Source: Candidatus Hydrogenedens sp.
Lineage (GTDB): Bacteria; Hydrogenedentota; Hydrogenedentia; Hydrogenedentales; Hydrogenedentaceae
Assembly (NCBI GenBank): GCA_049968235.1
Contig: JBMFRC010000030.1
Coordinates: 1-27,333 of the forward strand
Direction: 5' to 3'
Length of the DNA: 27,333 nt
The stretch's first letter is position 1, and the number at the start of each line of letters is the position of its first letter. Below the pieces are notes generated by a model. It was not told the DNA's origin. It made no database searches and saw nothing but the letters and a program-made list of their open reading frames with translations. Positions 1-22,050 of this stretch are shown here, piece after piece. Position numbers and translations under genes: made by a program.

Positions 1-2480
1 CCACCACCGCCACCATGGCCACCAGCAAGATAAAGATTATTTGCAGGAGCCGTAAACTCTGCATGATTACCATTACTACCATTCCCTCCAGAAACTCCAC
101 TTGCACCAATTGTCCCATTTCCCCCATTAGAACCATTTCCCCCACTGCTTCCTGCTGTTACATTCACGCAGTTTTGGGCTGTGCTTCCAATCCCAATAGA
201 ACCACCTGTACCAACACTGCCACCATTTGCATTCGTGGGAGAAATTCCTCCTGGAGTCCCTCCTGTTCCTCCACTTCCTGCTATTCCCTGTTGACCGAAA
301 CCCAATTGCCCATTTGATCCATTCATTCCTACTTCTCCCGAATTGCCAGCAAGACCTATCCCCCCGGGAGTGCCAGGATTGGAAGTTCCATTTTGACCAT
401 TACCGCCATTACTATTATTTCCACCGGCTCCACCTGTCGCTTGAGCACCTCCATAACCACCCATTGAACCACCTGCTCCACCTGTTCCTCCAGCACCACC
501 CGAACCACCGTTTCCTCCTACGCCTCCACCAGCCCTGCCTGGAACGGTGCCCGATACATCCAGTGTCGTATTCCATGTTATATCTTTTGTAGCAGATATG
601 ACCAGCGGATTTATTCCGGAGACATTCACCGTAACTCCTGATGGAACATATATTGTTTCAAAGTCAAATTTGCTAACATAATTCCCGCTACCCATATCAA
701 CAGAACGACCTGAAATTGCAAGTCTTCCGTTTACCCTATAGAAAGGCTGATATATTTGATCTCCCGTATAAATTGTTAATATGTCTCCCGAATTTAAAAT
801 TAAATTTCCAAGTTTTCCATTGCTTCTATAAAGTTCATCGATTGTAAAGGTAGGTTCCTGAAATAAATAGTTTGAATATATCTCTGTGTAATTGGTATTT
901 CCTACAAGGTCAGTGCAAACCCCCGCATTTATAACAACATTTACATAAAAATCAGAACTTCGGTTTACATTAATATGAAATTGATAATTCGCTCCACTAC
1001 CTGAGAAATTTGTTATTTGTGCTGACCCATTACCGGATGTCATTAACATAATATCATCTGCAGTAAATCCTTTGACAGGCTCGCTAAATTCTACAGAAAA
1101 AATCGTATAGTCATTCGTTGTAGGCGATGGTGTCGTAGGTGTGATTTGAATAAATGGCCGAGAAGTATCTACTGTATAAACTTCTCCTGTTGTAAAATTC
1201 CCATTTCCACTTCCAAATATTACACCCAAATTATTTCCTAATATTCTCCAGTTATCATCAACAATAGTATCTCTATCTAAAAAATCGATACTGAAGTTAC
1301 CATTACCTGTTCCTCGATTAACCGTTACAGTTCTTGTGGTTCCACTTCCTGTAACCGATATAATAGATGTACCTGAGAACCCCGGAGCGTCAATTATAAA
1401 ATCAGCAGGAGTAACTACAGATACAGGTTCGCTAAATGTAACTATAAATTGTAAAGTTGGATTACGAGTGGGATTTTGAGCAGATATATCTCTTTTAATT
1501 GAAACAACGAAAGGTGGTGTTGTATCTATTAGCCAATCAAATATATGCTGAAATAAAGAATTTTCAAATATTATTCTATACCCTTCTTCATTCAGATGAA
1601 TAGGGTCTGTTCCATTATTTCCCATTGCGGACATTGGAGATGGGTAATCGATGTTTCCTCCCGGAAGGGGAGTATATGAAGGAGGATGCCCGGGGTAAGG
1701 AGTTGTATTCATCGGAAATGGTGGAAAAAAAGTATCTGTAAAAATTTCTCCTTCACTATTAGAGTTAGATTTAAGATAATATCCATTATGACCATACCAA
1801 TATTGTTGTAAACCAAAACTATGAACATATTCTGTTCTGTATCGAGTTGCAGAAATCAATATTTTTCTTAAACCCAATTCGTAAAAAGCCTGATTTAATT
1901 CTGCAGGTGTCGGATAGTCCATTTGTATATATAATTCCTGAGCTAATTCAACCCCTTCAAGAGCAAGTTCATAAATATTGATATAATCATAATCTGCCAA
2001 AGCAATTTTTACATCGGGTCGAATTGATAAAATATAATCCACTACAGTTTGAATATTTTGCTGTATCGTGTCAAAAATATCATTATTACCCCCAGGTTGA
2101 GGAAGCATCCCCTTTTTCCAATTTTTTAATATATCATTAAGACCAAGTGACAAGTAAACAATATCTGCAGTTGGATTATTCAATAATGCATTTTGGAGAG
2201 AATAAGTTCTTAGTGGCATATTGCTATCTTTAAAATTCGGGACATCACTTGCCCAATCCTCTGCTGTTGTTCCACTAACTGCTGTTGTATCTCCAATGAC
2301 ACTAACATCGTTAAAACCATAATAATTTAAAACATCACCCCAGACATTGTATTCCAAAATTTTTTCTGCCCAGTCATCTCCTACTACAAGTATTCTTGCT
2401 GTCTGTGCGTATCCATTTACAACAGCAAAAATAACAAAAATAAAAACGATAGAATAATTAAGATAGTAAAACCTTCTCAT
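1..2480 (-). CDS. Giant secreted/cell-surface protein, paralog A (partial: start at 2480, C-terminal part lies beyond the window start). Signal peptide, SGNH/GDSL-fold hydrolase-like domain with GDD in place of GDS, two Ig-like domains opening with DTTPP, a beta-solenoid-like segment and a Gly-rich GGxGGx tract
   Basis: Hand translation of the reverse strand from the ATG at 2478-2480. A GGAGGAAGG Shine-Dalgarno lies 4-12 nt upstream (reverse complement of 2484-2492). The protein reads MRRFYYLNYSIVFIFVIFAVVNGYAQTARILVVGDDWAEK...SLGLNDIL...DPIHLNEEGY...DTTPPFVVSI...SGSGTTRTVTVNRGTGNGNFSIDF...ITWNTTLDVSGTVPGRAGGGVGGNGGSGG...APANNLYLAGGHGGGGG and is still open at position 1. It is collinear at protein level with the + strand gene at 2702..8558. 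It is absent from the ORF track only because it has no in-window stop. The track ORFs 15..317 and 227..592 are antisense or frame-shifted low-complexity artefacts of it. Confidence 0.8.
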   Translation of the reverse strand, partial: MRRFYYLNYSIVFIFVIFAVVNGYAQTARILVVGDDWAEKILEYNVWGDVLNYYGFNDVSVIGDTTAVSGTTAEDWASDVPNFKDSNMPLRTYSLQNALLNNPTADIVYLSLGLNDILKNWKKGMLPQPGGNNDIFDTIQQNIQTVVDYILSIRPDVKIALADYDYINIYELALEGVELAQELYIQMDYPTPAELNQAFYELGLRKILISATRYRTEYVHSFGLQQYWYGHNGYYLKSNSNSEGEIFTDTFFPPFPMNTTPYPGHPPSYTPLPGGNIDYPSPMSAMGNNGTDPIHLNEEGYRIIFENSLFQHIFDWLIDTTPPFVVSIKRDISAQNPTRNPTLQFIVTFSEPVSVVTPADFIIDAPGFSGTSIISVTGSGTTRTVTVNRGTGNGNFSIDFLDRDTIVDDNWRILGNNLGVIFGSGNGNFTTGEVYTVDTSRPFIQITPTTPSPTTNDYTIFSVEFSEPVKGFTADDIMLMTSGNGSAQITNFSGSGANYQFHINVNRSSDFYVNVVINAGVCTDLVGNTNYTEIYSNYLFQEPTFTIDELYRSNGKLGNLILNSGDILTIYTGDQIYQPFYRVNGRLAISGRSVDMGSGNYVSKFDFETIYVPSGVTVNVSGINPLVISATKDITWNTTLDVSGTVPGRAGGGVGGNGGSGGAGGTGGAGGSMGGYGGAQATGGAGGNNSNGGNGQNGTSNPGTPGGIGLAGNSGEVGMNGSNGQLGFGQQGIAGSGGTGGTPGGISPTNANGGSVGTGGSIGIGSTAQNCVNVTAGSSGGNGSNGGNGTIGASGVSGGNGSNGNHAEFTAPANNLYLAGGHGGGG

Positions 2481-2701
2481 TTGCCTTCCTCCAATAATTA
2501 CCAGTCTTAATTAATATGATAAAACACATACAAAAATACCACTAATTAAATTATAGCGGAAATTGTATATAAAAGTCAATAGTTTTAAGAAAAAAAATTA
2601 TTATTTTTAAATTGTAGAATTATGTAAAAATTGATTTATGAATTTTTAATGTTTTATGTTAAAATAATAAAACAAAGGAATTAATTTACGAGAGAATGAA
2701 T
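2481..2701. promoter_or_regulatory. AT-rich divergent intergenic region expected to carry the promoters of both giant paralog genes
   Basis: A 221-bp, very AT-rich spacer between the two outward-facing start codons (2480 on the minus strand, 2702 on the plus strand). I could not place confident -35/-10 hexamers. Confidence 0.35.
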
Positions 2702-3286
2702 ATGTGTTTGTTCAAAAGATTTTTTCGAGTAATACTCTTATCCATTTTGTTATGAGGGCTTTCTTCCTTTGCTTATTCTGCAACACTTCGTATTTTAATT
2801 GTCGGGGACAGTTGGGCAGAAATTATTTGGAATGATTCTATTTGGCCCTATGTATTAAATTACTATGGATTGAGTGATTGGAGTGTTCAAGGTGATAAGG
2901 TTGCCATAGGCGGAACAACTGCCGAACATTTTGCAGATGACTGGCCTAATCCGCGAGATAACAATAACCCTGTGCGAACATATTCCCTTCGAAATGCAAT
3001 TATGAATAATCCAACGATTGATATAGTTCATCTCAGTTTAGGAGGGAATGACCTACTCTGGAAATGGAAAAATGGTATGCAACCGCAACCGGGTCCTAAT
3101 AACGATGTATTTGATGAAATAGAACAGGACCTGACTACTGTAGTGGATTACATTCTCTCGCTCCGTCCAGACATTAAAGCAGGTTTAGTTGACTATGACT
3201 TCGTAAATATATGGGAATTAGCCCTCGCAGGGAATCAGGCGGCAATTCTAATGCAGGCTAACTTAGATAATCCATACGCCAAGTGA
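2702..3286 (+). pseudogene. Disrupted N-terminal part of giant surface protein paralog B: signal peptide plus SGNH/GDSL hydrolase domain interrupted by an in-frame TGA (2753-2755) and a frameshift near 3274-3276
   Basis: ATG at 2702 gives MCLFKRFFRVILLSILL, then TGA, then in the same frame GLSSFAYSATLRILIVGDSWAEIIWND...SLGGNDLL... This aligns residue for residue with paralog A (ILVVGDDWAE, SLGLNDIL). Frame 1 ends ...LDNPYAK-TGA at 3284-3286. Homology to paralog A (DYPTPAELNQAF) continues in the +1 frame as HTPSELNSAF. The track ORF 2870..3286 is an internal-Met fragment that would lack both the signal peptide and the GDS block. Confidence 0.6.
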
Positions 3287-3287
3287 A

Positions 3288-6200
3288 TTGAACTCCGCTT
3301 TTGTGGAATTAGGCTGGCGTAAGCGGAATATTGCAAATACACGCAATCGTGTCGCATATATCCATAATTTCGGTTTGCAACAATATAGACACGGTCATCC
3401 GGGATTCTGGGATAAGGGACCTGTCTATCGTCCGGCGTTTGCAAGTAATATAAGTCCCATCCCTGGCGACCCAACTGATTATATCCCCTATCCCGGTGGA
3501 TTTATCGAATATCCTACTCCGCGAGTAGGGCTTGCAAATAATGGTAATGACCCGATACATTTAAATACAACAGGCTATCGTGATTTATGCGGGTATGCAT
3601 TATATCAATTTTTTGCAAATTGGTTAATTGACACGACACCACCGTTTGTGGCATCTATCACACGCAATCCATCTGCTCCTAATCCTACCAATACGCAAAC
3701 ATTAGAATTTATAGTCACATTTACAGAACCAGTAACAAATGTAACTCTGGATGATTTTGTCATTGAGGGGATAGGTTTCAGTGGTGCATCTTTGGTATCT
3801 ATTTCGGGTTCAGGAACGACACGAACAGTAACAATAAACCGAGGCACAGGACAGGGAGACATTAGTATAGACCTAATCGACCGTGATACGATTTACGACA
3901 TGAACTGGCGTGTGCTTGGCAATGCTCTGGGACAAAACTTTGGGGCAGGTAACGCGAATTACACCGCTGGCGAATACTATACAATCGATACAACCTCACC
4001 AACTGTTCTCATTACAGCGGATACGCCTCAACCTAATGAAACCACTTATGCAACATTCACTACAACTTTCAGTGAACCGGTTACAGGATTTACCGCAAGC
4101 GATATACAATTAACTGTGTCGGGTTCAGGTATTGCACAAGTTACAAATTTTTCGGGTAGTGGAGCAACGTACAATTTTGGCATCACCGTGGCAAGGAGTT
4201 CCGACATCTTCGTAACAGTTAATATTCCAAACGGTATTTGCTCGGATATAGCAGGAAATCCCAATCAAGGTTACACCTATGATAATTACTATTTTAAACT
4301 CCCGCCTTTTGCTTCCACAGATGTTTATCTAAGTAATGGTACGCTTGGTGATTTGACAGTAAATTCAGGAGATATACTTGTTTTCTATACTGGCACCAAC
4401 ACACTACCACCTTATTACCAAATTAACTCCGGAATGCAAATACAGGGACAGTTATTAGACATAGGGAGTGGCAACAAAGTGGGCAAGTTTAACTTTCAGT
4501 CAATTTATGTTCCATCAGGGGTGAGCATTACTGTTTCAGGAACAAATCCATTAGTAATAGCAGGAACGAAAGATATTACATGGAATTCGCCTGTGGATGT
4601 ATCCGGTGCCGTTCCTGGACGGGCAGGAGGTGGTGTAGGTGGTAGTAGTGGTTCTGGCGGGAATGGTGGTCCCGGTGGTGTAGGCGGAACTTCAGGCGGT
4701 TCTGGTGCTTTATCTGCTCCTGGTGGTGCTGGAGGTGATTATAGCAATGGTGGTCAAGGACAACCCGGGACATCCTATTCTGGATATGCAGGTGGTGCAG
4801 GTGGGCAAGGCTCTGTCGGTCAGAATGGCTCCGCAGGTGCCAGTGGAACAGTTGGTTTCAACGGTATGGGTAGTCCAGGCTCAGGAGGAGGTGGTGGCTC
4901 TGGTGGTCCAGCATCGCCTGTGTGGGGTAATGGCGGTTCAGCCGGGTCTGGTGGTCCATCGGGCGGAGGCGGAGGAGGTAAGACCTGCGAAAATGGAAAT
5001 CCAGGTGGAAATGATGGTGATGGCTACAATGGCGGAAACGCAAATCCCGGTGCTCCTGGAAATAACGGTCAAAACGGTTCACCTGGCGGAAATGCCTCAT
5101 TTATAGCGCCGGCGAATGACTTGACCTTAGCAGGTGGTGCAGGAGGAGGCGGAGGAGGCGGAGGAGGCGGAGGTAGTGGTGGTCAAGGTGGTGGAAAAGG
5201 AGGAGGTGGTGGTAGTGGTGGTAGTGGAGGCGGTGGAGGTGGAGCGTGGAATGCTCCATGTCATAATTGTTCAGGTTCCGCAATAGATGGTTTTGGTGGT
5301 GTTGGCGGAATTGGCGGAGCAGGTGGTGCCGGCGGAAACGGTGGAAATGGTGGTACTGCCCCTAAGGCAAGAGATGGTGGAAAGGGTGGTGATAGATGCG
5401 GTGTCATAGTCCTATCTGCTCGTGGACTTGTTGTATTTGGAGGACAAATCAACATTTCTGCAAGTGCACCTGGTAGCGGTGGAACGACAGTGCCTGCGAA
5501 CCCTGGCTCAGCAGGTGTCGACCCCGGCAACAACTGGGGTTGGGGAAGCGGTGGAGGTAATGGCACACAAGGATACTGGGCTAACTCAATAGGATGGTGT
5601 TTCCCTGTTGAGTCCAATGGCGGAAATGGCGGTTCCGGTGGTCGCGGCGGTAGGGGTGGAATAGGGGGTACTGGAGGGCAGAGTAGAACATCCGGTGCCG
5701 GTGGTATCGGCGGATTGGGAACACCAGGTATGTTTAAACTACACGGCAGTATAATTCTTACCTCTGGCGGATTGGTTGTATGCAATAACCATACCACGGA
5801 TGCAAGTTCGAATATTATCGGCAGATTTACACACATCTCAAATATGCGTTCACCGACCTACCCTGCTTTCTCTGATGATATCCTCATTGGTGCTACGCAG
5901 AATGATGCCGTGCTGAAAGCACCTGCCCCTTACAATTTACTAATATCTGCTCCACTAATTCCACAATTGGTTGGCGGACCGGCTACCGGCGGTTTCACTG
6001 AATCCGATTTCTGGAATAAATCGCAAGTGAATACACCGGGAATAGACCTGGTAGAGAAGGTGGAACTTTCCGGTTCCAATTCGCCATTCAAGGATTTTAA
6101 ACAAATATTCCTCGTTAATAACGGTGGTGTAGATGCAAAAGAAGTAGAACTTTATGTAGATGGTTCACCGACATACTATATCGGTATCATTCCGAGTGGT

Positions 6201-8558
6201 GCTATCTGGACAACGACAGTGCCTGAAGGAATTAATGTATCTTTCAAGGTTGGTATGGATATTACGCTAACTCCTTTGAAAACGGAAACATATCAAGGTG
6301 CTTCTTTCTCCATTAATGCTAATGTCATCGGTGGAACAGGAACAAAATCATATCGCTGGCTAAGAAACGGACAGGAAGTAGCAGTGACTCCAGCACCGTT
6401 ACTAACGATTAACCCTGTGAACCTGTCCGATACTGGCACATATACCATAGAGGTAACTGACAGCACACATACAGAAACAGGTGATAATAGCGTTAGTGTA
6501 TTAGTTTATCTACCTGTTGCTATCAATACTCAGCCTATTGGCGGAAACTACACGACCGGGCAAACATTATTACTCACAGTTTCTGCGACTGGCGGTAAAG
6601 GCTCTCTAAATTATGATTGGCGGAAAGGCGGTGTATCGTTAGGTACTCCGAATCTGCCATATTTAGATTTATCGCCAGCGGGTCCGGAGGATAACGGAAG
6701 TTACGATGTAGTCGTTTCGGATGAACTTGGGTCTATTCCATATGGACAGGTTATCTCCAGTTCCGCATTGATTACAGTTAACGACCCATTAGCGGTTTAT
6801 GGACCTGCAGGACAGACTACAGTATATGAGAATACACCGAATGTGCAGTTAACTGTTCTGGCAAGTGGTGGTGTATCACCGTATAGATACGAGTGGTTTA
6901 AAGACCTTAATGAAAATGGTATCTTAGACGAAGGCGAGGTATTAAGCAATACCCCGCCATTCTCTGGTGTGGATACAGACACCCTGACTGTATCATCTCC
7001 AACTATAAGCAATAGCGGAGTATATCGTTGTATTGTTACAGATGATAACGGCAATGGTACAAGTGTGGTATCGCAAGCCGGAGTATTGAATGTTGTTCCT
7101 CATCTGACTATCGCAGTTCAACCACAAAATGTAGTTCGGAATCCAGGACAGAGTGTTCAGTTTACTGTAGAAATCATCGGTGGTATCCCTCCGTTGACAT
7201 ACACATGGCGTCGAGCCAGCATCGGCAATCTACCTCCTGAACAACAGCCCGGTGGAAATGTTTTGACACTGAACAATCTGAACGAGACAGATGAAGATTT
7301 CTACGATGTAATTATTCAAGACAGCGGGACTGATAGTATTACATCCGATGCAGTATTTTTGATGATAGTGGATAACCCACTTACGATTACTTCTCAGCCA
7401 ACAGACTTACGGGCGTATGTCGGAGAGTATCCATCACATACTCTTCAGGTAGTTGCAAATGGTGGATATGGAACTATCCACTACCTATGGATGAAGGATA
7501 ATCAGCCTGCCCCCGGTGTGAATAACCAATCCATCTACTTTATTACACCATTGACCACGAATGTCTCAGGGACTTATTACTGTGTGGTTAGCGATGATGT
7601 CCCAGAGAATAATATCAACTCGGATTCTGTAGAAGTATTAATTGCGGAGCATATGCAGTTTGTAAATGACCTACCTTCGGTGAAATACGCACCATATAAT
7701 GAACCGTTGACTTTAACTGTCTTGCTATCGGGCGGTTTAGGGAATCTTAATTACGAATGGTGGTTTAATAATGGCAATGGTTATACCCAGATAAGTGGCA
7801 ATTCTCCAACGATTAATTTGGGGAATCCCACAAGTATCAATACAGGGTTGTATTATGTACGTGTATTTGATGAGCGCGAAGAACTGCAATCCATAGTTTG
7901 TCAAATCTATGTAGGTGAAGATTTAGCGATTACACAACAACCTCAGGAAGTATTGATTTATATAGATGAAGGTCCTAATTTCCAGTTGGATGTTCAGACC
8001 ACCGATGGCTTTGGAAATAAACAATACACATGGTATCGTAATAATGAACTGGCTCCTGGAATAAATAATGAAGCAGTTTATGTATCCCCTCAAATAGAAC
8101 CATTATTGTCAGGTAATTATTGGGTTGAAGTTCGGGATGAAAAAGATACAGTACGGTCTGAACAAGCACGAGTTGCTATTAGTTCTCATGCAGAATTTCT
8201 CCGCCAACCTACAGGTGGAACAGTAGGAGAAGGAAATACCTGGCGATTTGAGGTAGAAGTAACGGGTGGGTTAATTGAATTGCATTATCAATGGAAATTC
8301 CAGCCGTTAGGTAAAGTGAAAGAAATTCAAAATATTGGCACAGATTCACCTATATTGGAAATCGCGGATATTAGTTCGAATGATGCAGGTTTATATTGGG
8401 TTGAAGTTACAGATGCTCGTGAGACAATTTCCTCAAATCAAGTTATATTAAATGTAGAAAAAGATATACCCTCGCATAATTTGTTAGGTATTACAATCAT
8501 AATTATTTCTATCATATCGATATTTTTCTATATTAAACAGTCCAAAGCAAAAGTATAA
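3288..8558 (+). CDS. Large intact ORF (1756 codons) for the remainder of giant surface protein paralog B: tail of the SGNH domain (DPIHLN His block), 2 Ig-like domains, a beta-solenoid-like segment, a ~380-aa Gly-rich GGxGGx tract, 8 tandem ~90-aa Ig (I-set-like) repeats and a C-terminal TM anchor
   Basis: ORF track 3288..8558. It begins at TTG one nucleotide after the TGA of the upstream fragment. Motifs read directly: DTTPPFVASI and DTTSPTVLI Ig-like openings. Gly-rich GGVGGSSGSGGNGGPGG...GGAGGAGGNGGNGG. Eight repeats each carry a GGxGxxxYxW motif (YRWLRNG, YDWRKGG, YEWFKD, YTWRRAS, YLWMKDN, YEWWFNN, YTWYRNN, YQWKFQP at about 270-nt spacing) and an SGxYxCxVxD-type motif (DTGTYTIEVTD, NSGVYRCIVTDD, VSGTYYCVVSDD, DAGLYWVEVTDA ...). 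The C-terminus is NLLGITIIIISIISIFFYIKQSKAKV. Whether it is expressed is uncertain because the upstream part is disrupted. Confidence 0.7.
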   Translation: MNSAFVELGWRKRNIANTRNRVAYIHNFGLQQYRHGHPGFWDKGPVYRPAFASNISPIPGDPTDYIPYPGGFIEYPTPRVGLANNGNDPIHLNTTGYRDLCGYALYQFFANWLIDTTPPFVASITRNPSAPNPTNTQTLEFIVTFTEPVTNVTLDDFVIEGIGFSGASLVSISGSGTTRTVTINRGTGQGDISIDLIDRDTIYDMNWRVLGNALGQNFGAGNANYTAGEYYTIDTTSPTVLITADTPQPNETTYATFTTTFSEPVTGFTASDIQLTVSGSGIAQVTNFSGSGATYNFGITVARSSDIFVTVNIPNGICSDIAGNPNQGYTYDNYYFKLPPFASTDVYLSNGTLGDLTVNSGDILVFYTGTNTLPPYYQINSGMQIQGQLLDIGSGNKVGKFNFQSIYVPSGVSITVSGTNPLVIAGTKDITWNSPVDVSGAVPGRAGGGVGGSSGSGGNGGPGGVGGTSGGSGALSAPGGAGGDYSNGGQGQPGTSYSGYAGGAGGQGSVGQNGSAGASGTVGFNGMGSPGSGGGGGSGGPASPVWGNGGSAGSGGPSGGGGGGKTCENGNPGGNDGDGYNGGNANPGAPGNNGQNGSPGGNASFIAPANDLTLAGGAGGGGGGGGGGGSGGQGGGKGGGGGSGGSGGGGGGAWNAPCHNCSGSAIDGFGGVGGIGGAGGAGGNGGNGGTAPKARDGGKGGDRCGVIVLSARGLVVFGGQINISASAPGSGGTTVPANPGSAGVDPGNNWGWGSGGGNGTQGYWANSIGWCFPVESNGGNGGSGGRGGRGGIGGTGGQSRTSGAGGIGGLGTPGMFKLHGSIILTSGGLVVCNNHTTDASSNIIGRFTHISNMRSPTYPAFSDDILIGATQNDAVLKAPAPYNLLISAPLIPQLVGGPATGGFTESDFWNKSQVNTPGIDLVEKVELSGSNSPFKDFKQIFLVNNGGVDAKEVELYVDGSPTYYIGIIPSGAIWTTTVPEGINVSFKVGMDITLTPLKTETYQGASFSINANVIGGTGTKSYRWLRNGQEVAVTPAPLLTINPVNLSDTGTYTIEVTDSTHTETGDNSVSVLVYLPVAINTQPIGGNYTTGQTLLLTVSATGGKGSLNYDWRKGGVSLGTPNLPYLDLSPAGPEDNGSYDVVVSDELGSIPYGQVISSSALITVNDPLAVYGPAGQTTVYENTPNVQLTVLASGGVSPYRYEWFKDLNENGILDEGEVLSNTPPFSGVDTDTLTVSSPTISNSGVYRCIVTDDNGNGTSVVSQAGVLNVVPHLTIAVQPQNVVRNPGQSVQFTVEIIGGIPPLTYTWRRASIGNLPPEQQPGGNVLTLNNLNETDEDFYDVIIQDSGTDSITSDAVFLMIVDNPLTITSQPTDLRAYVGEYPSHTLQVVANGGYGTIHYLWMKDNQPAPGVNNQSIYFITPLTTNVSGTYYCVVSDDVPENNINSDSVEVLIAEHMQFVNDLPSVKYAPYNEPLTLTVLLSGGLGNLNYEWWFNNGNGYTQISGNSPTINLGNPTSINTGLYYVRVFDEREELQSIVCQIYVGEDLAITQQPQEVLIYIDEGPNFQLDVQTTDGFGNKQYTWYRNNELAPGINNEAVYVSPQIEPLLSGNYWVEVRDEKDTVRSEQARVAISSHAEFLRQPTGGTVGEGNTWRFEVEVTGGLIELHYQWKFQPLGKVKEIQNIGTDSPILEIADISSNDAGLYWVEVTDARETISSNQVILNVEKDIPSHNLLGITIIIISIISIFFYIKQSKAKV
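5142..5173 (+). repeat. Perfect 9-bp tandem repeat (GGAGGAGGC) x3 plus a partial copy inside the Gly-rich coding tract
   Basis: Read directly: ggaggaggc ggaggaggc ggaggaggc ggagg. It encodes GGG units in frame and is a plausible slipped-strand length-variation site. Confidence 0.7.
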
Positions 8559-8572
8559 TTTTTTATAAAATT

Positions 8573-8606
8573 TTGGGGAACTTTTATGATCCCCAAGACA
8601 ATTTTT
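8573..8606 (+). terminator. Putative intrinsic terminator downstream of the paralog B ORF
   Basis: Inverted repeat ttgggga (8573-8579) / tccccaa (8590-8596) with a 10-nt loop, followed by gacaattttt (T-run 8602-8606). It starts 15 nt after the TAA at 8556-8558. Confidence 0.4.
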
Positions 8607-8796
8607 ATTATTACAGAAATAATGGAACTGTGATTTTGTGATTTATCTATTAAAGAGTAAATATGAAGGTGTCATTTTTATAAAGCGATAATTATATTGA
8701 ATGTGAAAAAAAGAATAAAGGGATAAATGCATCAAACATTAGAGGGTGGGCTTCTACATAAATAAAATTCCAACTAAATATTTGCAGAGAAGTTTA

Positions 8797-11772
8797 TCAG
8801 ATGTCGGATTTCTTCTTAAAACCTACACTTTTAGGACTTGGTATTGAAGTTCTTGGGACTATGATAGATTCTTTTTGTTGTATAGTTTGAGTTTCTGGAG
8901 TTACATTCTGAGTTTTCATTTCTATATTTTGGGATGATTGGGAGGGTTCTTTTTGTTGAAGTAGCGAAGAATTCGGGCTGGCATATTTGGTGGTAGGTAT
9001 TTTTGTCTCTTTATTTAATTGGAGAACTTTTAACATTTGTTCAATATACTCTGCAATTTCAATACGTTTTGATAGTAGCAAATTGGGATTTCTTGAAAAA
9101 TTAACTAAGTCGGGACAGAATTCTTGAAAGTTATAAACTTTTTCTGCTTGTTGTAACAATTCAGGATTATTTCCGGTATTTTTAAGTTCTTTGATTAGTT
9201 TTGAGAATATATTTAAGTAATCATAATCTTCAATTCCATCGCGAATTATTTCCCAGCGGATAGAATTTAGAGGTCCTTCTTTTCCAGGATATACCAGAAA
9301 TCCATCTCCATTTGTGGGAATTACATCGAGAGGACATTTTTGTGGGTCATTTTCCCTGGAATAATTGATACACCAGTAATGGACACCCTTAATTCCCAAC
9401 ATCCATGTCTGCCAGAAGAAAATTCTATGCTCAATCCCTGCAAAATCAAGGAAGAAATTGGCATAGGGACGAGGAGGTGCATGATTTACACACCACCAGA
9501 CCTCTTTTCCCGCCTGAATTTTTTCCAGTATGTATCTGTTAAATTGTGTATCCATCACAGGGCTATGAATACACCAGATATCTACATTCTCAGGAAGTAT
9601 TGGATTTAGTCCTCGTGTGGTTATCATCAACGGTAGGTCGGGAGTCTGAATTTTCCATTGAGTAATTGTATTTAATAATTTTTCTTTATCTTCTTCTTTC
9701 GGATATTCCCATAACGGGACAAAAGATTTTTTTAGCAGGTTGTTTGTTTGCAAAAAAGAATAGAGTGCTTTTAATTGTTCCGGTTGTTGTATTAATTGGG
9801 ATGGTATTGTAAAGGTATTTATACCTTCTTTAATAAGCCGTTGTATTTTCGGTAATATATTAGAAAGTTCCTGGGAATAATCGGAAGTTTTGGGTAAGGG
9901 TAGTTGTGTAAGTTCGCGAAGTGTTATTCGGTGTTCGATAGCATTTTGTAGGTATGCTGAAGCCACTGCGGAAGCATTCGGTTTATCTCCTGTAAGCACC
10001 TGAGAACTTTTGAGAGCATTTTCCCATGAAAACCCAAAATCTGTTTTTAGAGTGGGAATGTCCGGTAAAGCAAATTCGAACACATGAATATTTAGTTCCA
10101 ATTCTACAGGGTCGAAAGAGTTACTCTGTAATTCAAAAATTCCTTGATAGTCACCGGGGGGAAGGGTTTCAGGAGCGTATAATGTTATCCAGAAAGCGGA
10201 AGTCGTCTGTGGCGGAATTTTTATTGTGTTCGTTGGAGCAAGCATATCTGGCCAATAACCTGTGGGTCCTTCGTAGTAAGAAGGAATAACCACAGGATGA
10301 TATTTTACTTCATAGGTGGAAACGACATCTTTCGGCATGGACATTCCTGTTTGACGATTTTTAAGTTCAGAAAGAATTCCCTGAATGGTGCATGTGTCAT
10401 TCCCATTATTCCTTACAACAATTTGAATGGATTCCCGTTCCTTTCTTGCAAGGAATATTTTTAGTGCTGAATCCGTTTGATTAGAAGGTTCCGGATTATC
10501 TTCCGGGAAAACCTTAAAAAGAGATGATTCCGACCAGATTTTTGTTGTGGCATTCTGGAATAATAAACTTCTTTCTAATTTTCGAGGACCTTTGTCCAAT
10601 GCTTTGGTAGCATCTGTCCATGGAGGAAATGGTTCTTCATTCGTCGTTAAAGATGTTTCGGTACTGCCCACAACGAATTGAGTATCAATTCCTCCATGAG
10701 GCGAACCTGTTTCTTTACCGAGATAATACGGTTTTCCGTTCTGTTCTAACTGAGCAAGGAAATCATACCTCCCCGGTCCCGGTGCTGTCCATTCGTAAGT
10801 GCAACGAATAAGTATGTTGGGTTGAAAATCGAATTTCTTTGTGGGTAAATGCCATACTCTACCATCATGTCCAAGTATTCGTGATTGGATACGCATATTT
10901 TTGAAGTCACGGTTTGGAGAGAGAAGCAAAATCAGTTTTCCATCTTCTTTGTAATCTAATTGGCAGGCTATTTCTTCCGAAGCGAAATTAACATGGCTAA
11001 GTCCACGAACTATTGAAAGTTTATAAATAGTTGACCATGTATCACCGGGTTTTAGTAAAGATGGAAGAAACCATGATTGCACTCCTTGTTTACTTTCCTG
11101 AGGCTCCCATACGGCTAAAAAGGAATGAAGCATATCCGCATGGAATATAAGACAAACATTGGCTAAGAGTTCCTGATCTGTATAGGCAGACCAATTTCGA
11201 GATGCAACCCAATGATGACTGGAATTGATTGTCATAATACCTTCTGTGGTAGGCAGTTCTAAACGGTCAGATTCATTCCATTTTCCCCCAGGGTTAATGG
11301 AGTTGGCTACCCATGGAGCTATCCACTGACTTTCGTTCCCTTCGTTTTTAACTTCTAATTTGATAGAAAGTCCTGCTACAAAGGGTGATAATTGAATGGT
11401 TCGCTTTACTTTTAGCCCTTGTATATTGGGTCCTTCGCAATTATAGGTATAGCGAAACTCTTTTGTCCCGTCAGGTAATGTACTTTGCTCCCATTGCTCA
11501 TTGATTTTCCGATTGGGAACATAAAAATTGCCTACACCAAAGCCTTCCTGAAACATTCCCAGAGGACCTGCAATGTTATCCGCTGGGTTTGTCAAACCAA
11601 GTTGAGTAATGACTCCCTGTTTAGCAGGATCTATTTTTAACCACATATAGTGAGATTTTACTTCTGTCTCAGTATCTATGTTTTGTGATGTGGTATTGAA
11701 CGAGATAAAAATTACAAACAGTTGTAGAAATATTGCAATATACGCTCTTGTTTCAGTAGATAAGTCCATCAT
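8797..11772 (-). CDS. Large secreted protein (991 aa) with an N-terminal signal/TM segment; putative glycoside-hydrolase-like protein carrying a DUF4091-type C-terminal region
   Basis: ORF track. N-terminus MMDLSTETRAYIAIFLQLFVIFISF is hydrophobic. A C-terminal-third block WCINYSRENDPQKCPLDVIPTNGDGFLVYPGKEGPLNSIRWEIIRDGIEDYDYLN matches my recollection of the DUF4091 signature (DGxLxYPG...SIRxExxRDGxEDYEYL). Stop is TGA. The family assignment is from memory, not a search. Confidence 0.55.
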   Translation of the reverse strand: MMDLSTETRAYIAIFLQLFVIFISFNTTSQNIDTETEVKSHYMWLKIDPAKQGVITQLGLTNPADNIAGPLGMFQEGFGVGNFYVPNRKINEQWEQSTLPDGTKEFRYTYNCEGPNIQGLKVKRTIQLSPFVAGLSIKLEVKNEGNESQWIAPWVANSINPGGKWNESDRLELPTTEGIMTINSSHHWVASRNWSAYTDQELLANVCLIFHADMLHSFLAVWEPQESKQGVQSWFLPSLLKPGDTWSTIYKLSIVRGLSHVNFASEEIACQLDYKEDGKLILLLSPNRDFKNMRIQSRILGHDGRVWHLPTKKFDFQPNILIRCTYEWTAPGPGRYDFLAQLEQNGKPYYLGKETGSPHGGIDTQFVVGSTETSLTTNEEPFPPWTDATKALDKGPRKLERSLLFQNATTKIWSESSLFKVFPEDNPEPSNQTDSALKIFLARKERESIQIVVRNNGNDTCTIQGILSELKNRQTGMSMPKDVVSTYEVKYHPVVIPSYYEGPTGYWPDMLAPTNTIKIPPQTTSAFWITLYAPETLPPGDYQGIFELQSNSFDPVELELNIHVFEFALPDIPTLKTDFGFSWENALKSSQVLTGDKPNASAVASAYLQNAIEHRITLRELTQLPLPKTSDYSQELSNILPKIQRLIKEGINTFTIPSQLIQQPEQLKALYSFLQTNNLLKKSFVPLWEYPKEEDKEKLLNTITQWKIQTPDLPLMITTRGLNPILPENVDIWCIHSPVMDTQFNRYILEKIQAGKEVWWCVNHAPPRPYANFFLDFAGIEHRIFFWQTWMLGIKGVHYWCINYSRENDPQKCPLDVIPTNGDGFLVYPGKEGPLNSIRWEIIRDGIEDYDYLNIFSKLIKELKNTGNNPELLQQAEKVYNFQEFCPDLVNFSRNPNLLLSKRIEIAEYIEQMLKVLQLNKETKIPTTKYASPNSSLLQQKEPSQSSQNIEMKTQNVTPETQTIQQKESIIVPRTSIPSPKSVGFKKKSDI

Positions 11773-11983: not shown

Positions 11984-13041
11984 ATATGAAAGCGTTAAGA
12001 CTTTATGCACCCGGAGATTTAAGGTTGGAAGAAATTCCTATTCCTCTACCGAGCCCTGATGAGGTGCTGGTTCGCATACTGGCATGTGGAATTTGTGGTT
12101 CTGATATACCTCGTGTATTCGAACATGGAACTTACAAATATCCTCTTATCCCGGGTCATGAGTTTTCAGGTATTGTTGAGAAAGTAGGTTCTGAAACTGG
12201 AAAAGATTGGATAGGACGACATGTAGTCGTATATCCATTAATCCCTTGTAGGCAATGTTCCTCATGCTATTCGGGTTTATATACACAGTGTCTTAATTAT
12301 GATTACTTAGGGTCAAGAAGAGATGGGGGATTTGCGGAATATGTTACTGTACCAAGAGATAATATTATTCCTGTTCCGGATGGAGTTCCCGGAGAAGTTT
12401 CAGCAATAACAGAACCCTGTGCTGTGGCTTTGCATGCAGTAAGAAAGGCTCAAGTTTGTGCCGGAGATACCGTATTGATAACAGGTGCAGGAACAATTGG
12501 TATATTGATTGCTCTATGGGCAAGGGCTTCCGGGGCAGAAGTTCTAATGACAGACCTTATTATAAAGAAGTTAAAGTTTGCTCGTTCTTTAGGTTTTCAA
12601 CATCTCTTAGATGCGGGACAGGCAAACGTATCTGAATGGGTAAAACAAAGATATAAAAATGGGGTTAATTTAGTTTTTGAAACAACGGGACATCCTGGAG
12701 GGTTAGAAACGGCTATAGAAAGTTGCTGTATTTCGGGGAGAATTATTTTAGTCGGAAATCCATCTTTTGAAGAAATGAAACTCCCTGCAAAACAATACGG
12801 AACAATTTTGCGTAAAGAAATTCAGATTACAGGAGTATGGAATTCATGGATAAATGAGTATCCCAAAAATGAATGGCAGGTGGTCTTGCAGGAATTTAAA
12901 AAAGATAGTTCCCTTTATTCAAAAGTTATTACTCATAAAGTTCCTATTGAAGGGCTTAAAGAATTGTTCATGGAAATATACAACAAAAAAGTTTTTCCTA
13001 TAAAGGCAATATATTGTAATAAGGAGATAAACTCATGTTAG
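11984..13041 (+). CDS. Zn-dependent medium-chain dehydrogenase/reductase (MDR) family alcohol/polyol dehydrogenase (sorbitol/galactitol-phosphate/threonine dehydrogenase-like)
   Basis: The track ORF 11920..13041 contains MKALRLYAPGDLRLEEIPIP at 11984, preceded by the purine-rich stretch aaaggaaaag. That ATG is the more likely start. Catalytic Zn motif GHEFSGIVEKVG. Structural Zn Cys cluster CRQCSSCYSGLYTQC. GxGxxG ITGAGTIG. Confidence 0.8.
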
Positions 13042-14069
13042 CATTGGTATTTGAAGATATTGGGAAACTGGCATTAAAAGAGGTTCCAAAACCGCAAGTA
13101 GTACCGGGTTCGGTATTGGTAAAAGTCAAATCTTGTGCTATTTGTGGTTCTGATTTGAGAATAATCAATAATGGAAATAGCCGAGTTAAGGTCCCTACGA
13201 TATTGGGTCATGAAGCCTCAGGTGAGGTTGTAGAAGTAGGAGAAGGTGTAAATCGTTTTAAGGTCGGAGACCGAGTGGCAATAGGTTCCGATGTCCCCTG
13301 TGGAACCTGCGTTTATTGTGAAGCAGGAATAGGTAATATATGCCCAATAAATTATGCTATGGGTTATCAGTTTCCGGGAAGTTTCGCTGAGTATGTGTTA
13401 TTGAACCCTCTGGTGGTAGAACATGGTCCTGTTCATCATATTCCGGATAATGTATCTTATGATGAGTCCGCATTAGCAGAACCGTTGGCATGTTGTCTGA
13501 ATGCTTTGGAATTATGTGGAGTGAATTTAGGGGAAAGTGTTGTTATTATTGGTGCAGGACCAATAGGATGTATGCTGATGGAAGTATCTCGTAAAATGGG
13601 TGCAGGAAAAGTTATTGCGGTAAATCGCACACGGAAAAGAGAAAATGTTGTTCAGCAAGTTGCTGATGTAATTATATATACATCAGAAGAAAATCTTGTT
13701 TCTCGAATCTTAGAAGAGACAGGAGGTTTGGGGGCGGATGTAGTTCTAACTGCCTGTTCATCTCCGGAAGCACAGATAGATGCTTTACATATCGTAAGAA
13801 ATCGCGGTCGTGTAAATTTCTTCGGTGGTTTGCCACCGGGAACTCCACCAACGCCCATCGACACAAACATAATCCACTATAAAGAAATACTACTTACCGG
13901 GGCACATGGTTCTGTTCCACGTCATCATCGACAGGCTCTTGAACTTATATCTCGTGGAATTGTACAGGTAAAAAGATATATTTCCTCGGCATATCCTCTC
14001 TCAAAATCTCTGGAAGCGTTTCAGAAAGCGAGTGAAAAAACAGAAATGCGTGTTCTTATTCAGCCCTGA
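13035..14069 (+). CDS. Second Zn-dependent MDR-family alcohol/polyol dehydrogenase, a tandem paralog
   Basis: ORF track. CAICGSD, GHEASGEVVEVGEGV, Cys cluster CGTCVYCEAGIGNIC, IIGAGPIG. Its ATG overlaps the TAG of the upstream gene in ATGTTAG (7-nt overlap). Ends in TGA at a length typical for the family (344 aa). Confidence 0.85.
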   Translation: MLALVFEDIGKLALKEVPKPQVVPGSVLVKVKSCAICGSDLRIINNGNSRVKVPTILGHEASGEVVEVGEGVNRFKVGDRVAIGSDVPCGTCVYCEAGIGNICPINYAMGYQFPGSFAEYVLLNPLVVEHGPVHHIPDNVSYDESALAEPLACCLNALELCGVNLGESVVIIGAGPIGCMLMEVSRKMGAGKVIAVNRTRKRENVVQQVADVIIYTSEENLVSRILEETGGLGADVVLTACSSPEAQIDALHIVRNRGRVNFFGGLPPGTPPTPIDTNIIHYKEILLTGAHGSVPRHHRQALELISRGIVQVKRYISSAYPLSKSLEAFQKASEKTEMRVLIQP

Positions 14070-14171: not shown

Positions 14172-14969
14172 ATGAAAAAGAAAGCAGACCCTATCTGGGC
14201 GAGAATTCGTGAAGAAGCACAGGAAGGTATTCAAAAAGAGCCATTGCTTGCAAGTTTTTTGTCATCCACCATATTATCACACAAGACTTTGGAGGATGTA
14301 TTAAGTTTCCATTTGGCAGGGAAATTAGAAAGCATCACTTTGCCCGCGGTGAGTTTACGTGAATTGTTTGACGAAGCCTTCGCAAATGAATCCGGAATTG
14401 GAGAGGCTATTCGTGCGGACTTGATTGCCGTTCATGACCGAGACCCCGCATGCCGGTTATTCTGCCAGCCTTTATTATATTTCAAAGGTTTTCAGGCGTT
14501 GCAATCATATCGAGTTGCTCATTATTACTGGAATAGGGAACGGTTTCATCTGGCTTTATTTTTACAAAGCAGAATGTCAGAGGTGTTCGGGATTGATATA
14601 CATCCTGCTGCAAGAATCGGCAAAGGGATATTGATTGACCATGGAACAGGGGTGGTTATTGGAGAAACCGCTGTAATTGGGAATAATGTATCTTTATTAC
14701 ATGAAGTAACCTTAGGAGGAACGGGGAAAGTTCGTGGAGATAGACATCCCAAGATTGGAGATGGAGTATTAATTGCTGCGGGTGCAAAGATATTAGGAAA
14801 TGTTCATGTAGGGGAAGGTGCAAAAGTTGCTGCATGTGCCGTTGTTCTCAGGGATATTCCTCCTCATACCACAGTTGCGGGAGTACCTGCAAAACCGATT
14901 GGTCCTACTTCTGAAGAGGCTCCAGCCCTTGTTATGGACCAATTCTTTTCCAATGGTGAGGGACTTTAA
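14172..14969 (+). CDS. cysE: Serine O-acetyltransferase (CysE), left-handed beta-helix hexapeptide acyltransferase
   Basis: MKKKADPIWARIREEAQ is the classic CysE N-terminus. Hexapeptide repeats IGETAVIGNNVSLLHEVTLGG...IGDGVLIAAGAKILGNV. The track start 14151 is a TTG; the ATG at 14172 is preferred. Confidence 0.8.
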   Translation: MKKKADPIWARIREEAQEGIQKEPLLASFLSSTILSHKTLEDVLSFHLAGKLESITLPAVSLRELFDEAFANESGIGEAIRADLIAVHDRDPACRLFCQPLLYFKGFQALQSYRVAHYYWNRERFHLALFLQSRMSEVFGIDIHPAARIGKGILIDHGTGVVIGETAVIGNNVSLLHEVTLGGTGKVRGDRHPKIGDGVLIAAGAKILGNVHVGEGAKVAACAVVLRDIPPHTTVAGVPAKPIGPTSEEAPALVMDQFFSNGEGL

Positions 14970-17646: not shown

Positions 17647-17980
17647 AATTTATTCCCTTTTTGTATCGCTCTATTTTGTATTTTCTCGCAATATCTTATT
17701 AGGAATAATACATTATTATAATATGTATGTCAATTTTTTATGTAAATTCTAAGAATTTATGGATTGAAATTGAAAGGTCAACGAGAAACAATTTTATAAA
17801 TAGAAAGATAAAATAACAACCGGAAATAAAGATAAATAGTTTCATATTTGCATTGGAATATTTAAAATATTTATAATTATATTCCTATAAATTAATAAAA
17901 AATTTTTGCTGGGGGAGAGAAAAGTTTATTTATTATGTAAACAAATATTAATTAAATTGTAAAAGGTAAAGGAGTTATCC

Positions 17981-18139
17981 GTGAAAAGGACTTACCAACC
18001 ATCGAATACCCGTAGATTGCGGACGCACGGTTTTCGTGCAAGAATGGCTACCCGCTGGGGAAGAGCTGTATTAAGTGCACGTCGGAGAAAAGGTCGTAAA
18101 TATTTAACGGTTTCAGACCGAGTTGAGAAGAAATATTAA
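17981..18139 (+). CDS. rpmH: 50S ribosomal protein L34
   Basis: Not in the ORF track because it is short. GTG start with an AAAGGAG Shine-Dalgarno at 17967-17973. Translation [44 protein letters not shown]... is the canonical L34 sequence. TAA at 18137-18139. Confidence 0.85.
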
Positions 18140-18171
18140 CAAAAAATTTTTATGGAGGGTAAGAATACTTT

Positions 18172-18528
18172 GTGCCCGGAAAATATGGCTTTCCTAAAGA
18201 ATATCGCCTTCGAAAGAAGAAGGAATTTGAAGATGTTTTCCAGAAGGGAAAGCGTATTACCGGGGAAGGAATGGTTTGCTATTGGTTTTCTGATGAACAG
18301 ATGGGTAACAAATTGGGGATAGTAGTATCCCGAAAGGTAGGACAGTCGGTGAAAAGGAATCGAATTAAAAGATATGTTCGGGAATTTTATAGGTTAAACC
18401 GACCTCATTTTCGTGAGAATGGTGTTTTGGTTGTTGTTGCCCGTGTAGGACTGTCCGAATGGAATCATCAACAGATTGATGCCGAATTGGCAAGGTTACT
18501 TAAAACCGGGGGAATACTCAATGGCTAA
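18172..18528 (+). CDS. rnpA: Ribonuclease P protein component
   Basis: ORF track. Basic protein with the NRIKRYVREFYR block typical of RnpA. Immediately downstream of rpmH, the conserved order. Confidence 0.8.
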   Translation: MPGKYGFPKEYRLRKKKEFEDVFQKGKRITGEGMVCYWFSDEQMGNKLGIVVSRKVGQSVKRNRIKRYVREFYRLNRPHFRENGVLVVVARVGLSEWNHQQIDAELARLLKTGGILNG

Positions 18529-22013: not shown

Positions 22014-22050
22014 TACATAAAAACTAATTTATTTCTTAAGGAAAAGAATA

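What the first reader, a model, noticed from the sequence alone, without database searches (positions are those of the whole stretch)
2702..3290. The two copies have each lost a piece of the SGNH catalytic apparatus: paralog B keeps GDS but is hit by a nonsense codon and a frameshift confined to the SGNH region, while intact paralog A has GDD at the nucleophile
In paralog B the only two lesions in about 5.9 kb are an in-frame TGA at 2753-2755 inside the signal peptide (ILLSILL*GLSSFAYSA) and a frame change at about 3274-3276. At that point homology to paralog A switches frame: frame 1 ends ...LDNPYAK*, while DYPTPAELNQAF matches HTPSELNSAF in the +1 frame. The following 1756 codons, including the slippage-prone Gly-rich tract, remain open. 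That argues against an old pseudogene. It argues for recent inactivation, a sequencing or assembly error, or phase-variable (ON/OFF) expression of the exported form. In paralog A the Ser of the GDS(L) nucleophile motif reads GDD (GGA GAT GAC TGG GCA GAA) while the Gly/Asn and Asp-His blocks are retained. So neither copy appears able to make a secreted, catalytically competent SGNH esterase. A protein started at the TTG at 3288 or the Met at 2870 would lack a signal peptide. TGA recoding is unlikely because TGA ends two conserved genes (13035..14069 and 8797..11772) at normal lengths.
Basis: partly seen in the sequence, partly recalled or inferred. Interest (0 to 1): 0.6.

Follow-up and report, generated by a model that had tools for sequence, protein, structure and literature searches.

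The report
Decaying esterase-surface-protein gene beside altered paralog
One of two neighbouring giant surface-protein genes in this Hydrogenedentes bacterium is a real, recently killed and now decaying pseudogene, while its intact twin has carried an aspartate in place of the esterase's catalytic serine since the two genes duplicated, so the finding is largely correct but mostly ordinary.

Summary
Paralog B (2702..8558, +) has an in-frame TGA at 2753-2755 and a 1-nt insertion (A3276), and 1756 codons stay open after it. Paralog A (minus strand, start 2480, runs off the left end) reads GDD where every other homolog reads GDS.

Both B lesions are real. An independent conspecific MAG contig (L040, 99.81% identical) carries the same two lesions plus two more: another 1-nt insertion and W1899*. 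Within the species, B shows 9 nonsynonymous to 4 synonymous differences and about three times the SNP density of its flanks. Between species its dN/dS is about 0.03-0.1. B is therefore a recently inactivated, decaying pseudogene. It is not an assembly error, a phase-variable gene or a recoded gene.

GDD in A is not a lesion. It is fixed in every A-clade ortholog (six populations, 66-90% identical), with synonymous GAC/GAT variation and dN/dS about 0.07-0.11. It arose on the A stem after the A/B duplication. A's SGNH domain is most likely a maintained non-hydrolytic or chemically altered module.

Beyond the finding, A, B or a single-copy homolog carry independent, unique nonsense or frameshift lesions in five other populations, so loss appears recurrent.

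Interest is modest.

The parts
1..2480 (-). Paralog A, 5' part only (826 codons, start codon at 2480-2478, gene runs off the left end). It has a signal peptide, an SGNH-like domain (about 2402-1521), Big_12-type Ig domains, and a Gly-rich region that begins at about 545.
   Evidence: Translation has no stops. Pfam hits to Lipase_GDSL_2, Lipase_GDSL and Big_12 are below the gathering cutoff. Full-length orthologs of 1962-1988 aa are found in L032, L003 and L007.
2373..2381 (-). GDD (GGA GAT GAC) at SGNH block I of paralog A. D36 occupies the nucleophile position.
   Evidence: Alignments. GDD is present in all A-clade orthologs with synonymous GAC/GAT variation. AF2 model: strand 2-9, then helix 11-18. 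2VPT profile alignment.
2133..2144 (-). Block III of paralog A, GLND. The oxyanion Asn is kept. The Gly before it is replaced by Leu in the whole A clade.
1596..1607 (-). Block V of paralog A, DPIH (Asp and His retained).
2481..2701 (.). AT-rich 221-bp intergenic region between the divergently oriented A and B genes, presumed to hold divergent promoters. The consensus scan found no more sites than in shuffled sequence.
2702..3275 (+). Paralog B, 5' fragment (pseudogene). It holds the start ATG at 2702, the signal peptide, and SGNH blocks I-III: GDS 2804-2812, GGT 2909-2917, GGND 3041-3052.
2753..2755 (+). Nonsense codon TGA in the signal peptide of B. Orthologs have TTA (Leu), GTA or GTG (Val) at this codon.
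   Evidence: The same TGA is present in the independent conspecific contig L040.
3276..3276 (+). Inserted A that shifts the frame of B. The old frame then stops at the TGA at 3284-3286.
   Evidence: Multi-ortholog DNA alignment. The same insertion is present in L040.
3277..8558 (+). Rest of pseudogene B, in the shifted frame. It holds SGNH block V (DPIH 3549-3560), Big_12 domains, a Gly-rich region from about 4611, about 8 Ig_3 repeats, and a C-terminal hydrophobic anchor at 8481-8531. It is still open in the window strain.
   Evidence: ORF 3288..8558. Pfam Ig_3, I-set and Big_12 hits. One tblastn HSP to intact L032 B. In L040 this stretch carries an extra 1-nt insertion at about 5836 and TGG to TAG at 8398.

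Best explanation
A and B are divergently oriented paralogs. Each encodes a cell-surface protein of about 1,950 aa built from a signal peptide, an N-terminal SGNH esterase-fold domain, Big_12/Ig domains, a Gly-rich spacer, Ig_3 repeats and a C-terminal membrane anchor.

**Paralog B.** B keeps the canonical Ser-Gly-Asn-His/Asp apparatus and is an intact gene under strong constraint in several related species. In this species it was knocked out by two mutations: a TTA-type Leu codon changed to TGA in the signal peptide, and a 1-nt insertion (A3276). Both mutations are shared by two independently assembled strains. B now evolves without constraint, with neutral-like polymorphism and further lesions in the sister strain. 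No full-length exported product is expected from it (inferred).

**Paralog A.** A changed the nucleophile Ser to Asp, and GGND to GLND, on the stem branch right after the A/B duplication. It has kept that state under purifying selection in every A-clade lineague examined here, that is, in every A-clade lineage. Its SGNH-fold domain is therefore a maintained module. It is most probably non-hydrolytic, for example ligand-binding, as in the only solved SGNH-fold domain with Asp at that position, the Oskar OSK domain. That functional reading is inferred and was not shown.
For: **Lesions are real and shared**
- L040 (GCA_049969095.1) is 99.81% identical to window 22-10148. It shows no difference at 2753-2755 or 3276.
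- L040 adds an insertion at about 5836 and W1899*.

**Relaxed constraint on B within the species**
- There are 13 SNPs in B, 9 nonsynonymous (one a nonsense) and 4 synonymous.
- The other 8.8 kb compared with the same MAG holds 6 SNPs (binomial P = 0.011).

**Long-term constraint on B**
- NG86 dN/dS is 0.03-0.045 for B's SGNH domain and 0.06-0.14 for the rest.
- The window branch's dN is not accelerated.
- Intact B orthologs of 1925-1953 aa exist in L032, L033 and L006.

**Not recoding**
- Nonsense codons in other lineages are TAG, TAA and TGA, at positions where orthologs have W or L/V (Y inferred from the window for the TAA).
- TGA ends three normal genes in the window.

**A clade**
- GDD is present in all of window, L040, L032, L033, L034, L007 and L003, with GAC/GAT variation. 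Every other homolog uses AGY Ser.
- In the NJ tree the A clade has 200/200 bootstrap support, the B clade 200/200 and A+B as sisters 183/200. All outgroups read GDS, and the A stem is longer.
- dN/dS of A's SGNH domain is 0.07-0.11.

**Nucleophile position**
- Shown by the 2VPT profile alignment, the AF2 model and Foldseek hits that are all SGNH esterases.
- The Oskar precedent comes from PMC10792757.
Against: - No reads or expression data are available, so low-level readthrough combined with frameshifting cannot be excluded experimentally.
- The window and L040 may come from the same study and sequencing platform. A platform-specific systematic error is conceivable, but neither site is a homopolymer.
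- The full length of A in this species is not seen. Both the window and L040 break in the Gly-rich region, so A could be damaged further downstream.
- A retains Asn, Asp and His. This is equally compatible with residual or altered catalysis. At about 75% overall conservation, invariance of these few residues is weak evidence either way.
Confidence: 0.82

Rival explanations
1. The TGA and the extra base are consensus, assembly or sequencing errors, and B is really intact.
For: The sources are MAGs and no reads were available. Giant repeat-rich genes are hard to assemble.
Against: - Both lesions are present in an independently assembled conspecific MAG contig that differs from the window at 18 SNPs and 1 indel.
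- There are no indels in 14.3 kb against L001 or in 5 kb against L002.
- Neither site is a homopolymer or a repeat.
- A-B DNA identity is only about 64%, so a paralog chimera is implausible.
- Neutral-like polymorphism and extra lesions in B fit a true pseudogene.
Confidence: 0.04
2. Phase-variable (reversible ON/OFF) expression of the exported B protein through mutable sites.
For: - One lesion in another population (L034, paralog A) is a (TA)6 to (TA)7 slippage.
- Surface proteins are classic contingency genes.
- Several lineages carry different single lesions.
Against: - The window's two lesions are a point substitution and a single-base insertion in non-repetitive sequence.
- Reversion would need two independent exact back-mutations.
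- Both strains are OFF with identical lesions, and one has two further lesions.
- No invertible element or SSR lies at the 5' end.
Confidence: 0.04
3. Translational recoding yields full-length B, through TGA read as an amino acid plus a programmed +1 frameshift.
For: The long open downstream frame in the window strain. The 0-frame stop lies only 3 codons after the shift site.
Against: - No slippery +1 motif lies between the TAG at 3264-3266 in the +1 frame and the TGA at 3284-3286. The codons CCA-UAC, GCC-AAG and AAG-UGA cannot re-pair after a +1 shift (sequence).
- Orthologs have no shift at this site.
- TGA is a normal terminator here.
- Orthologous codons are Leu or Val, not Trp, Gly or Sec.
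- The downstream frame is broken in L040.
Confidence: 0.02
4. B is a split gene whose 1756-aa downstream ORF (TTG at 3288) is still made and used without the SGNH domain.
For: - The ORF is open in the window.
- In L003/L004 the B ortholog is split exactly at the SGNH/Big boundary into 338-aa and 1619-aa ORFs.
Against: - The product would lack a signal peptide although it is built of extracytoplasmic Ig-type domains and a C-terminal anchor.
- The same ORF carries a frameshift and a nonsense codon in the conspecific MAG, and its polymorphism has N:S of about 2:1.
Confidence: 0.06

Closest known systems
SGNH/GDSL hydrolases of the Lipase_GDSL_2 (PF13472) type, e.g. Clostridium thermocellum CE3 acetyl esterase (PDB 2VPT)
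   Same: - The fold matches: Foldseek top hits are all SGNH esterases.
- Block I GDS, block III GGND and block V D-x-x-H align with the enzyme's motifs.
- The B clade and all outgroups keep every catalytic block.
   Different: - Only sub-threshold Pfam scores (20-25 bits against a cutoff of 32.9).
- About 100 extra residues are inserted between blocks III and V.
- The domain sits at the N-terminus of an Ig-repeat surface protein of about 1,950 aa.
- In the window, B is a pseudogene and A has Asp in place of the nucleophile.
OSK domain of Drosophila Oskar (PDB 5A4A), a non-enzymatic SGNH-like fold
   Same: According to PMC10792757, it is the only solved SGNH-fold protein with Asp instead of Ser at the block I nucleophile position. 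It is a binding module, not an enzyme. This is a precedent for reading the A-clade domain as non-hydrolytic.
   Different: - OSK lacks the whole triad and most active-site contacts, whereas paralog A keeps the Asn of block III and the Asp-x-x-His of block V.
- It is eukaryotic, intracellular and RNA-binding.
- No sequence relationship was tested here.
Recently inactivated ('young') bacterial pseudogenes of large surface proteins or adhesins
   Same: - One or a few lesions in an otherwise open reading frame.
- Lesions shared by close strains, with further strain-specific hits.
- Neutral-like within-species polymorphism contrasting with strong between-species constraint.
   Different: Nothing essential. 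The notable feature is that the same family is hit independently in at least six populations.

Membership tests
SGNH/GDSL hydrolase superfamily (fold) | Three-layer alpha/beta/alpha SGNH fold | tested here: met
   AF2 model of the A domain has pLDDT 85 and pTM 0.86. There are 65 Foldseek PDB hits with E<=1e-3, and the top 50 listed are SGNH/GDSL-type proteins, mostly esterases, plus related acyltransferases.
SGNH/GDSL hydrolase (catalytically competent enzyme) | Block I Ser nucleophile (GDS) | tested here: not met
   Paralog A has GDD (2381-2373), conserved in all A-clade orthologs. Paralog B has GDS (2804-2812), but the gene is disrupted upstream and downstream of it.
SGNH/GDSL hydrolase (catalytically competent enzyme) | Block II Gly and block III Asn (oxyanion hole) | tested here: met
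   B has GGT and GGND. A has SGT and GLND, so the Asn is kept but the neighbouring Gly is replaced by Leu.
SGNH/GDSL hydrolase (catalytically competent enzyme) | Block V Asp-x-x-His | tested here: met
   DPIH is present in both A (1607-1596) and B (3549-3560) and aligns with DGLH of 2VPT.
SGNH/GDSL hydrolase (catalytically competent enzyme) | Measured esterase or acyltransferase activity | not testable with these tools
   Needs recombinant protein assays.
Pfam Lipase_GDSL_2 (PF13472) | Score at or above the gathering threshold (32.9 bits) | tested here: not met
   25.4 bits for A and 20.4 bits for repaired B. Several database homologs carry the precomputed PF13472 assignment.
Pseudogene (paralog B) | Disabling lesions relative to intact orthologs, reproducible in independent assemblies | tested here: met
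   TGA and A3276 measured against intact L032, L033 and L006. Both are present in L040.
Pseudogene (paralog B) | Relaxed selection after inactivation | tested here: met
   Within-species N:S is 9:4. SNP density is 2.2/kb against 0.68/kb elsewhere (P = 0.011). Two extra lesions in L040. Small numbers.
Phase-variable contingency locus | Lesion lies in a hypermutable repeat or invertible element, with ON and OFF alleles coexisting | tested here: not met
   Both window lesions lie in non-repetitive sequence. Both strains are OFF. Within-sample allele frequencies were not testable.
Programmed frameshift or stop-codon recoding | Conserved slippery site or recoding signal, and conservation of the shift in orthologs | tested here: not met
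   There is no slippery motif. Orthologs are unshifted at this site. Stop codons of all three kinds occur at lesions in other lineages.

The most novel reading that the evidence does not exclude
There are two readings that the data do not exclude.

1. The A-clade domain could be a functional SGNH variant that uses Asp-His-Asp chemistry, either with Asp as nucleophile or as a base activating water, rather than a dead binding module. The Asp is selectively maintained alongside intact Asn, Asp and His.

2. The repeated, independent and recent knock-outs of A, B or the single-copy homolog may be driven by selection rather than drift. They occur in at least six populations, and in the window species, L033, L034 and the L003 population the partner gene, as far as it is seen, is open. 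The driver could be escape from a phage or predator that uses these exposed proteins as a receptor, making this a natural loss-of-function polymorphism system in Hydrogenedentes.
Probability: 0.12. Interest if true: 0.6.

Novelty: new member of a known kind. Interest (0 to 1): 0.3.

Why it matters
- **Annotation.** B should be called a pseudogene in this species. Its 138-aa and 1756-aa ORFs should not be annotated as proteins. A's 'SGNH/GDSL hydrolase' label should not be read as an active esterase.
- **Biology.** The locus is a clean small example of two fates after duplication. One copy changed its catalytic nucleophile and kept it for a long time. The other stayed canonical but is repeatedly lost.
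- **Wider relevance.** The conserved Ser-to-Asp SGNH domain is a rare state. The only structurally known precedent is the non-enzymatic Oskar OSK domain. It would be a cheap target for a biochemical test.
- **Lead for follow-up.** The recurrent knock-outs hint at selection on the cell surface of an uncultured phylum. This is a lead, not a result.

Tried and rejected
- **Exact-product look-ups.** Searches for the 1756-aa ORF and the 991-aa GH123 protein found nothing. The conspecific contig was reached only through the paralog A fragment P0016.
- **dS values.** Between-species dS is saturated (many NaN), so only the order of magnitude of dN/dS is used.
- **First NJ tree.** It had a frame error for window B. 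It was redone correctly.
- **Promoter and terminator scan.** The scan of the intergenic region gave no more sites than shuffled sequence.
- **Rfam.** The gathering-threshold scan of the whole window found nothing.
- **NCBIfam.** It gave only a sub-threshold T9SS Por_Secre_tail hit at B's C-terminus (20.8 bits against a cutoff of 23), which is not accepted.
- **Rejected ideas.** TGA-as-Trp/Gly code, selenocysteine, a +1 programmed frameshift and an A/B chimeric assembly were all considered and rejected. The reasons are given under the rival explanations.
Full report
**What is in the sequence**

The window is 37.8% G+C. The same-species MAG contigs L001, L002 and L040 identify it as Candidatus Hydrogenedens/Hydrogenedentota. 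It carries two divergently oriented paralogs separated by a 221-bp AT-rich spacer.

Paralog A is on the minus strand. It starts at 2480 and runs off the left end, giving 826 codons with no stop. Paralog B is on the plus strand from 2702 to 8558. The two are 56% identical over 796 aa.

Both have the same architecture:
- a signal peptide;
- an SGNH-fold domain of about 300 aa with sub-threshold Pfam GDSL hits;
- Big_12-type Ig domains;
- a long Gly-rich region;
- in B and in the full-length orthologs of both, about eight Ig_3 repeats and a C-terminal hydrophobic anchor.

**Checking the observation**

Every element of the description is present.
- TGA lies at 2753-2755, codon 18 of the signal peptide.
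- Frame 1 ends ...LDNPYAK* at 3284-3286 and homology continues in the next frame. A DNA alignment with seven B orthologs pins this to one inserted base, A3276 (CCAT[A]CGCC against CCAT-CACC). Deleting it restores ...NLDNPSPSELNSAF.
- The ORF 3288..8558 is 1756 codons. It matches the intact 1953-aa ortholog in L032 as a single tblastn HSP in one frame.
- Paralog A reads GGA GAT GAC (GDD, 2381-2373) where B reads GDS (2804-2812). Block II Gly, block III Asn and block V DPIH are present in both.
- TGA ends three ordinary ORFs in the window.
- The ATG at 2702 is the right start. It aligns with the ortholog starts, and in L007 it is the only ATG.

**Is the GDD position the nucleophile?**

Yes, on four lines of evidence.
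- All 15 database homologs and all non-A loci from genome and metagenome scans have GDS-W at this column.
- A profile of the family aligns GDS, GGND and D-G-x-H to the corresponding motifs of the solved CE3 esterase 2VPT.
- An AlphaFold model of A's domain (pLDDT 85) has strand 2-9 followed by helix 11-18, which puts the second Asp at the strand-to-helix turn that carries the Ser in SGNH enzymes.
- Its Foldseek hits are all SGNH esterases.

**B's lesions are real and B is decaying**

L040 is a contig of an independently assembled conspecific MAG (GCA_049969095.1, JBMFPN010000072.1). It is 99.81% identical to window 22-10148.

L040 carries the same TGA and the same inserted A. It also has an additional 1-nt insertion at about 5836 and a TGG-to-TAG change (W1899*) at 8398. 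The gene calls on that contig include the same 138-aa ORF as 2870..3286.

Between the window and that MAG, B carries 13 SNPs, of which 9 are nonsynonymous (one a nonsense) and 4 synonymous. The 8.8 kb of other sequence compared with the same MAG carries 6 SNPs (binomial P = 0.011). Against L001 and L002 there are no indels in 19 kb. Assembly error is therefore very unlikely.

Between species, B is strongly constrained. NG86 dN/dS is about 0.03-0.045 in the SGNH domain and 0.06-0.14 elsewhere. The dN of the window branch, from a three-taxon comparison with L032 and L031, is not elevated. Intact B orthologs exist in L032, L033 and L006. In L034 and L007 they are intact up to the contig end.

Inactivation is thus young on the scale of species divergence. 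It is old enough to be shared by two strains and to be followed by further hits.

**Rivals for B**

*Recoding.* This is rejected.
- The orthologous codon is TTA, GTA or GTG.
- Nonsense lesions elsewhere in the family use TAG, TAA and TGA.
- There is no +1 slippery motif between the flanking stops, and orthologs are unshifted at this site.

*Phase variation.* This is not supported. Neither lesion lies in a repeat, two exact reversions would be needed, and both strains are OFF.

*A functional signal-less 1756-aa product.* This is unlikely because that ORF is itself broken in L040.

**A's GDD is ancestral, not damage**

A-type orthologs sit next to B in L032, L033, L034, L007 and L003/L004, and in L040. 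They are 66-90% identical to each other over their length and 73-86% identical to the window's N-terminal 335 aa. All read GDD, with the Asp codon varying between GAC and GAT. Every other homolog uses AGY Ser, so the change needed two substitutions.

The A clade also shares GGND to GLND and His to Tyr just before block III.

In an NJ tree of the first 330 residues, the A clade has 200/200 bootstrap support, the B clade 200/200 and A+B as sisters 183/200. All outgroups read GDS. A is more diverged from the outgroups than B (p-distance 0.53 against 0.42). dN/dS of A's SGNH domain is 0.07-0.11.

The Ser-to-Asp change therefore happened once, on the A stem after the duplication, and has been maintained since.

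A structural survey of SGNH folds reports that the only solved member with Asp at this position is the Oskar OSK domain, which is RNA-binding and not an enzyme (PMC10792757). By analogy, A's domain is most likely a non-hydrolytic module. That is inference. A keeps Asn, Asp and His, so altered catalysis is not excluded.

**Wider pattern, beyond the finding**

Independent and unique lesions occur in relatives:
- L003/L004/L008/L035: the B ortholog has a 1-nt deletion just after the SGNH domain.
- L031: B has a TAA nonsense at aa 514.
- L033: A has TGG to TAG at aa 411.
- L034: conspecific with L033 (98.4% identical), A instead has a (TA)6-to-(TA)7 insertion. Each of these two lesions is absent from the other contig.
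- L041-L043: a single-copy GDS homolog has TGG to TGA in the SGNH domain plus a frameshift, identical in three assemblies.

In the window species, L033, L034 and the L003 population, where both paralogs are at least partly visible, only one of the two is hit. Whether this rate exceeds the background for these MAGs was not tested. It is a lead, not a conclusion.

**Verdict**

Its cautious reading that B is recently inactivated is right, and the alternatives it offered (assembly error, phase variation) are now unlikely.

The headline symmetry, that 'each copy lost a piece', is misleading. B is a young, decaying pseudogene. A carries an old, selectively maintained active-site substitution.

This is a new member of known kinds of things: a young pseudogene and a probable pseudo-enzyme domain. 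It carries one modestly unusual feature, the conserved Asp at the SGNH nucleophile position.

Noticed in passing
L034:~5116-5155 (minus strand), compared with L033 and L032: Paralog A of L034 is frameshifted by a TA insertion in a (TA)6 run that encodes ...PFLYIYNV... of an Ig repeat. The conspecific L033 lacks this insertion but has TGG to TAG at aa 411 of the same gene. So two different knock-outs of one gene occur within one species.
   Followed up: partly
L003:10001-15861 and L004:4266-8872: In a related species the B ortholog is split by a 1-nt deletion exactly at the SGNH/Big-domain boundary (WLVD|TTPPF) into 338-aa and 1619-aa ORFs. The split is identical in the ENA and Logan assemblies. 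This locus also has a GntR/LacI-type regulator gene inserted between A and B, which the window lacks.
   Followed up: partly
L041:9482-15014, L042, L043: A single-copy GDS homolog (54% identical to B) in another Hydrogenedentes population is broken by TGG to TGA inside the SGNH domain and by a frameshift in the Gly-rich region. The lesions are identical in three assemblies.
   Followed up: partly
window 8481-8558 (and the C-termini of the orthologs): B ends in a hydrophobic helix followed by a short basic tail (LLGITIIIISIISIFFYIKQSKAKV), resembling a tripartite sorting or anchor signal. The only library hit is a sub-threshold T9SS Por_Secre_tail match (20.8 bits against a cutoff of 23).
   Followed up: no
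window 2690-2701: The Shine-Dalgarno-like AGGAGA found 6 nt upstream of the B start in L032, L033, L034 and L007 reads GAGAGA in the window and in L040. This may be a further sign of decay at the 5' end of B.
   Followed up: no
window 8797-11772 (-): A 991-aa protein with GH123 catalytic and N-terminal domains lies immediately downstream of B. Together with the SGNH esterase domains this hints at a glycan-processing neighbourhood.
   Followed up: no
window ~17980-23433 (+): This is the conserved rpmH-rnpA-yidD-yidC-jag-mnmE cluster, usually found near the replication origin. The gene identities are taken from the L001 gene calls, which are 99.94% identical to the window.
   Followed up: no
window 23935-26952 (-): A 1005-aa Type III restriction Res-subunit/DEAD-helicase-like protein sits in a stretch that looks lower in G+C by eye and is not shared with L001 beyond 24069. 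It may be a strain-variable defence island.
   Followed up: no
window 14966-16024 (-): A 352-aa membrane-anchored ORF has no Pfam hit but contains a 'GCSFTFG' segment and a late 'DGHP' motif. It may be another very divergent SGNH-like protein. This was not tested.
   Followed up: no
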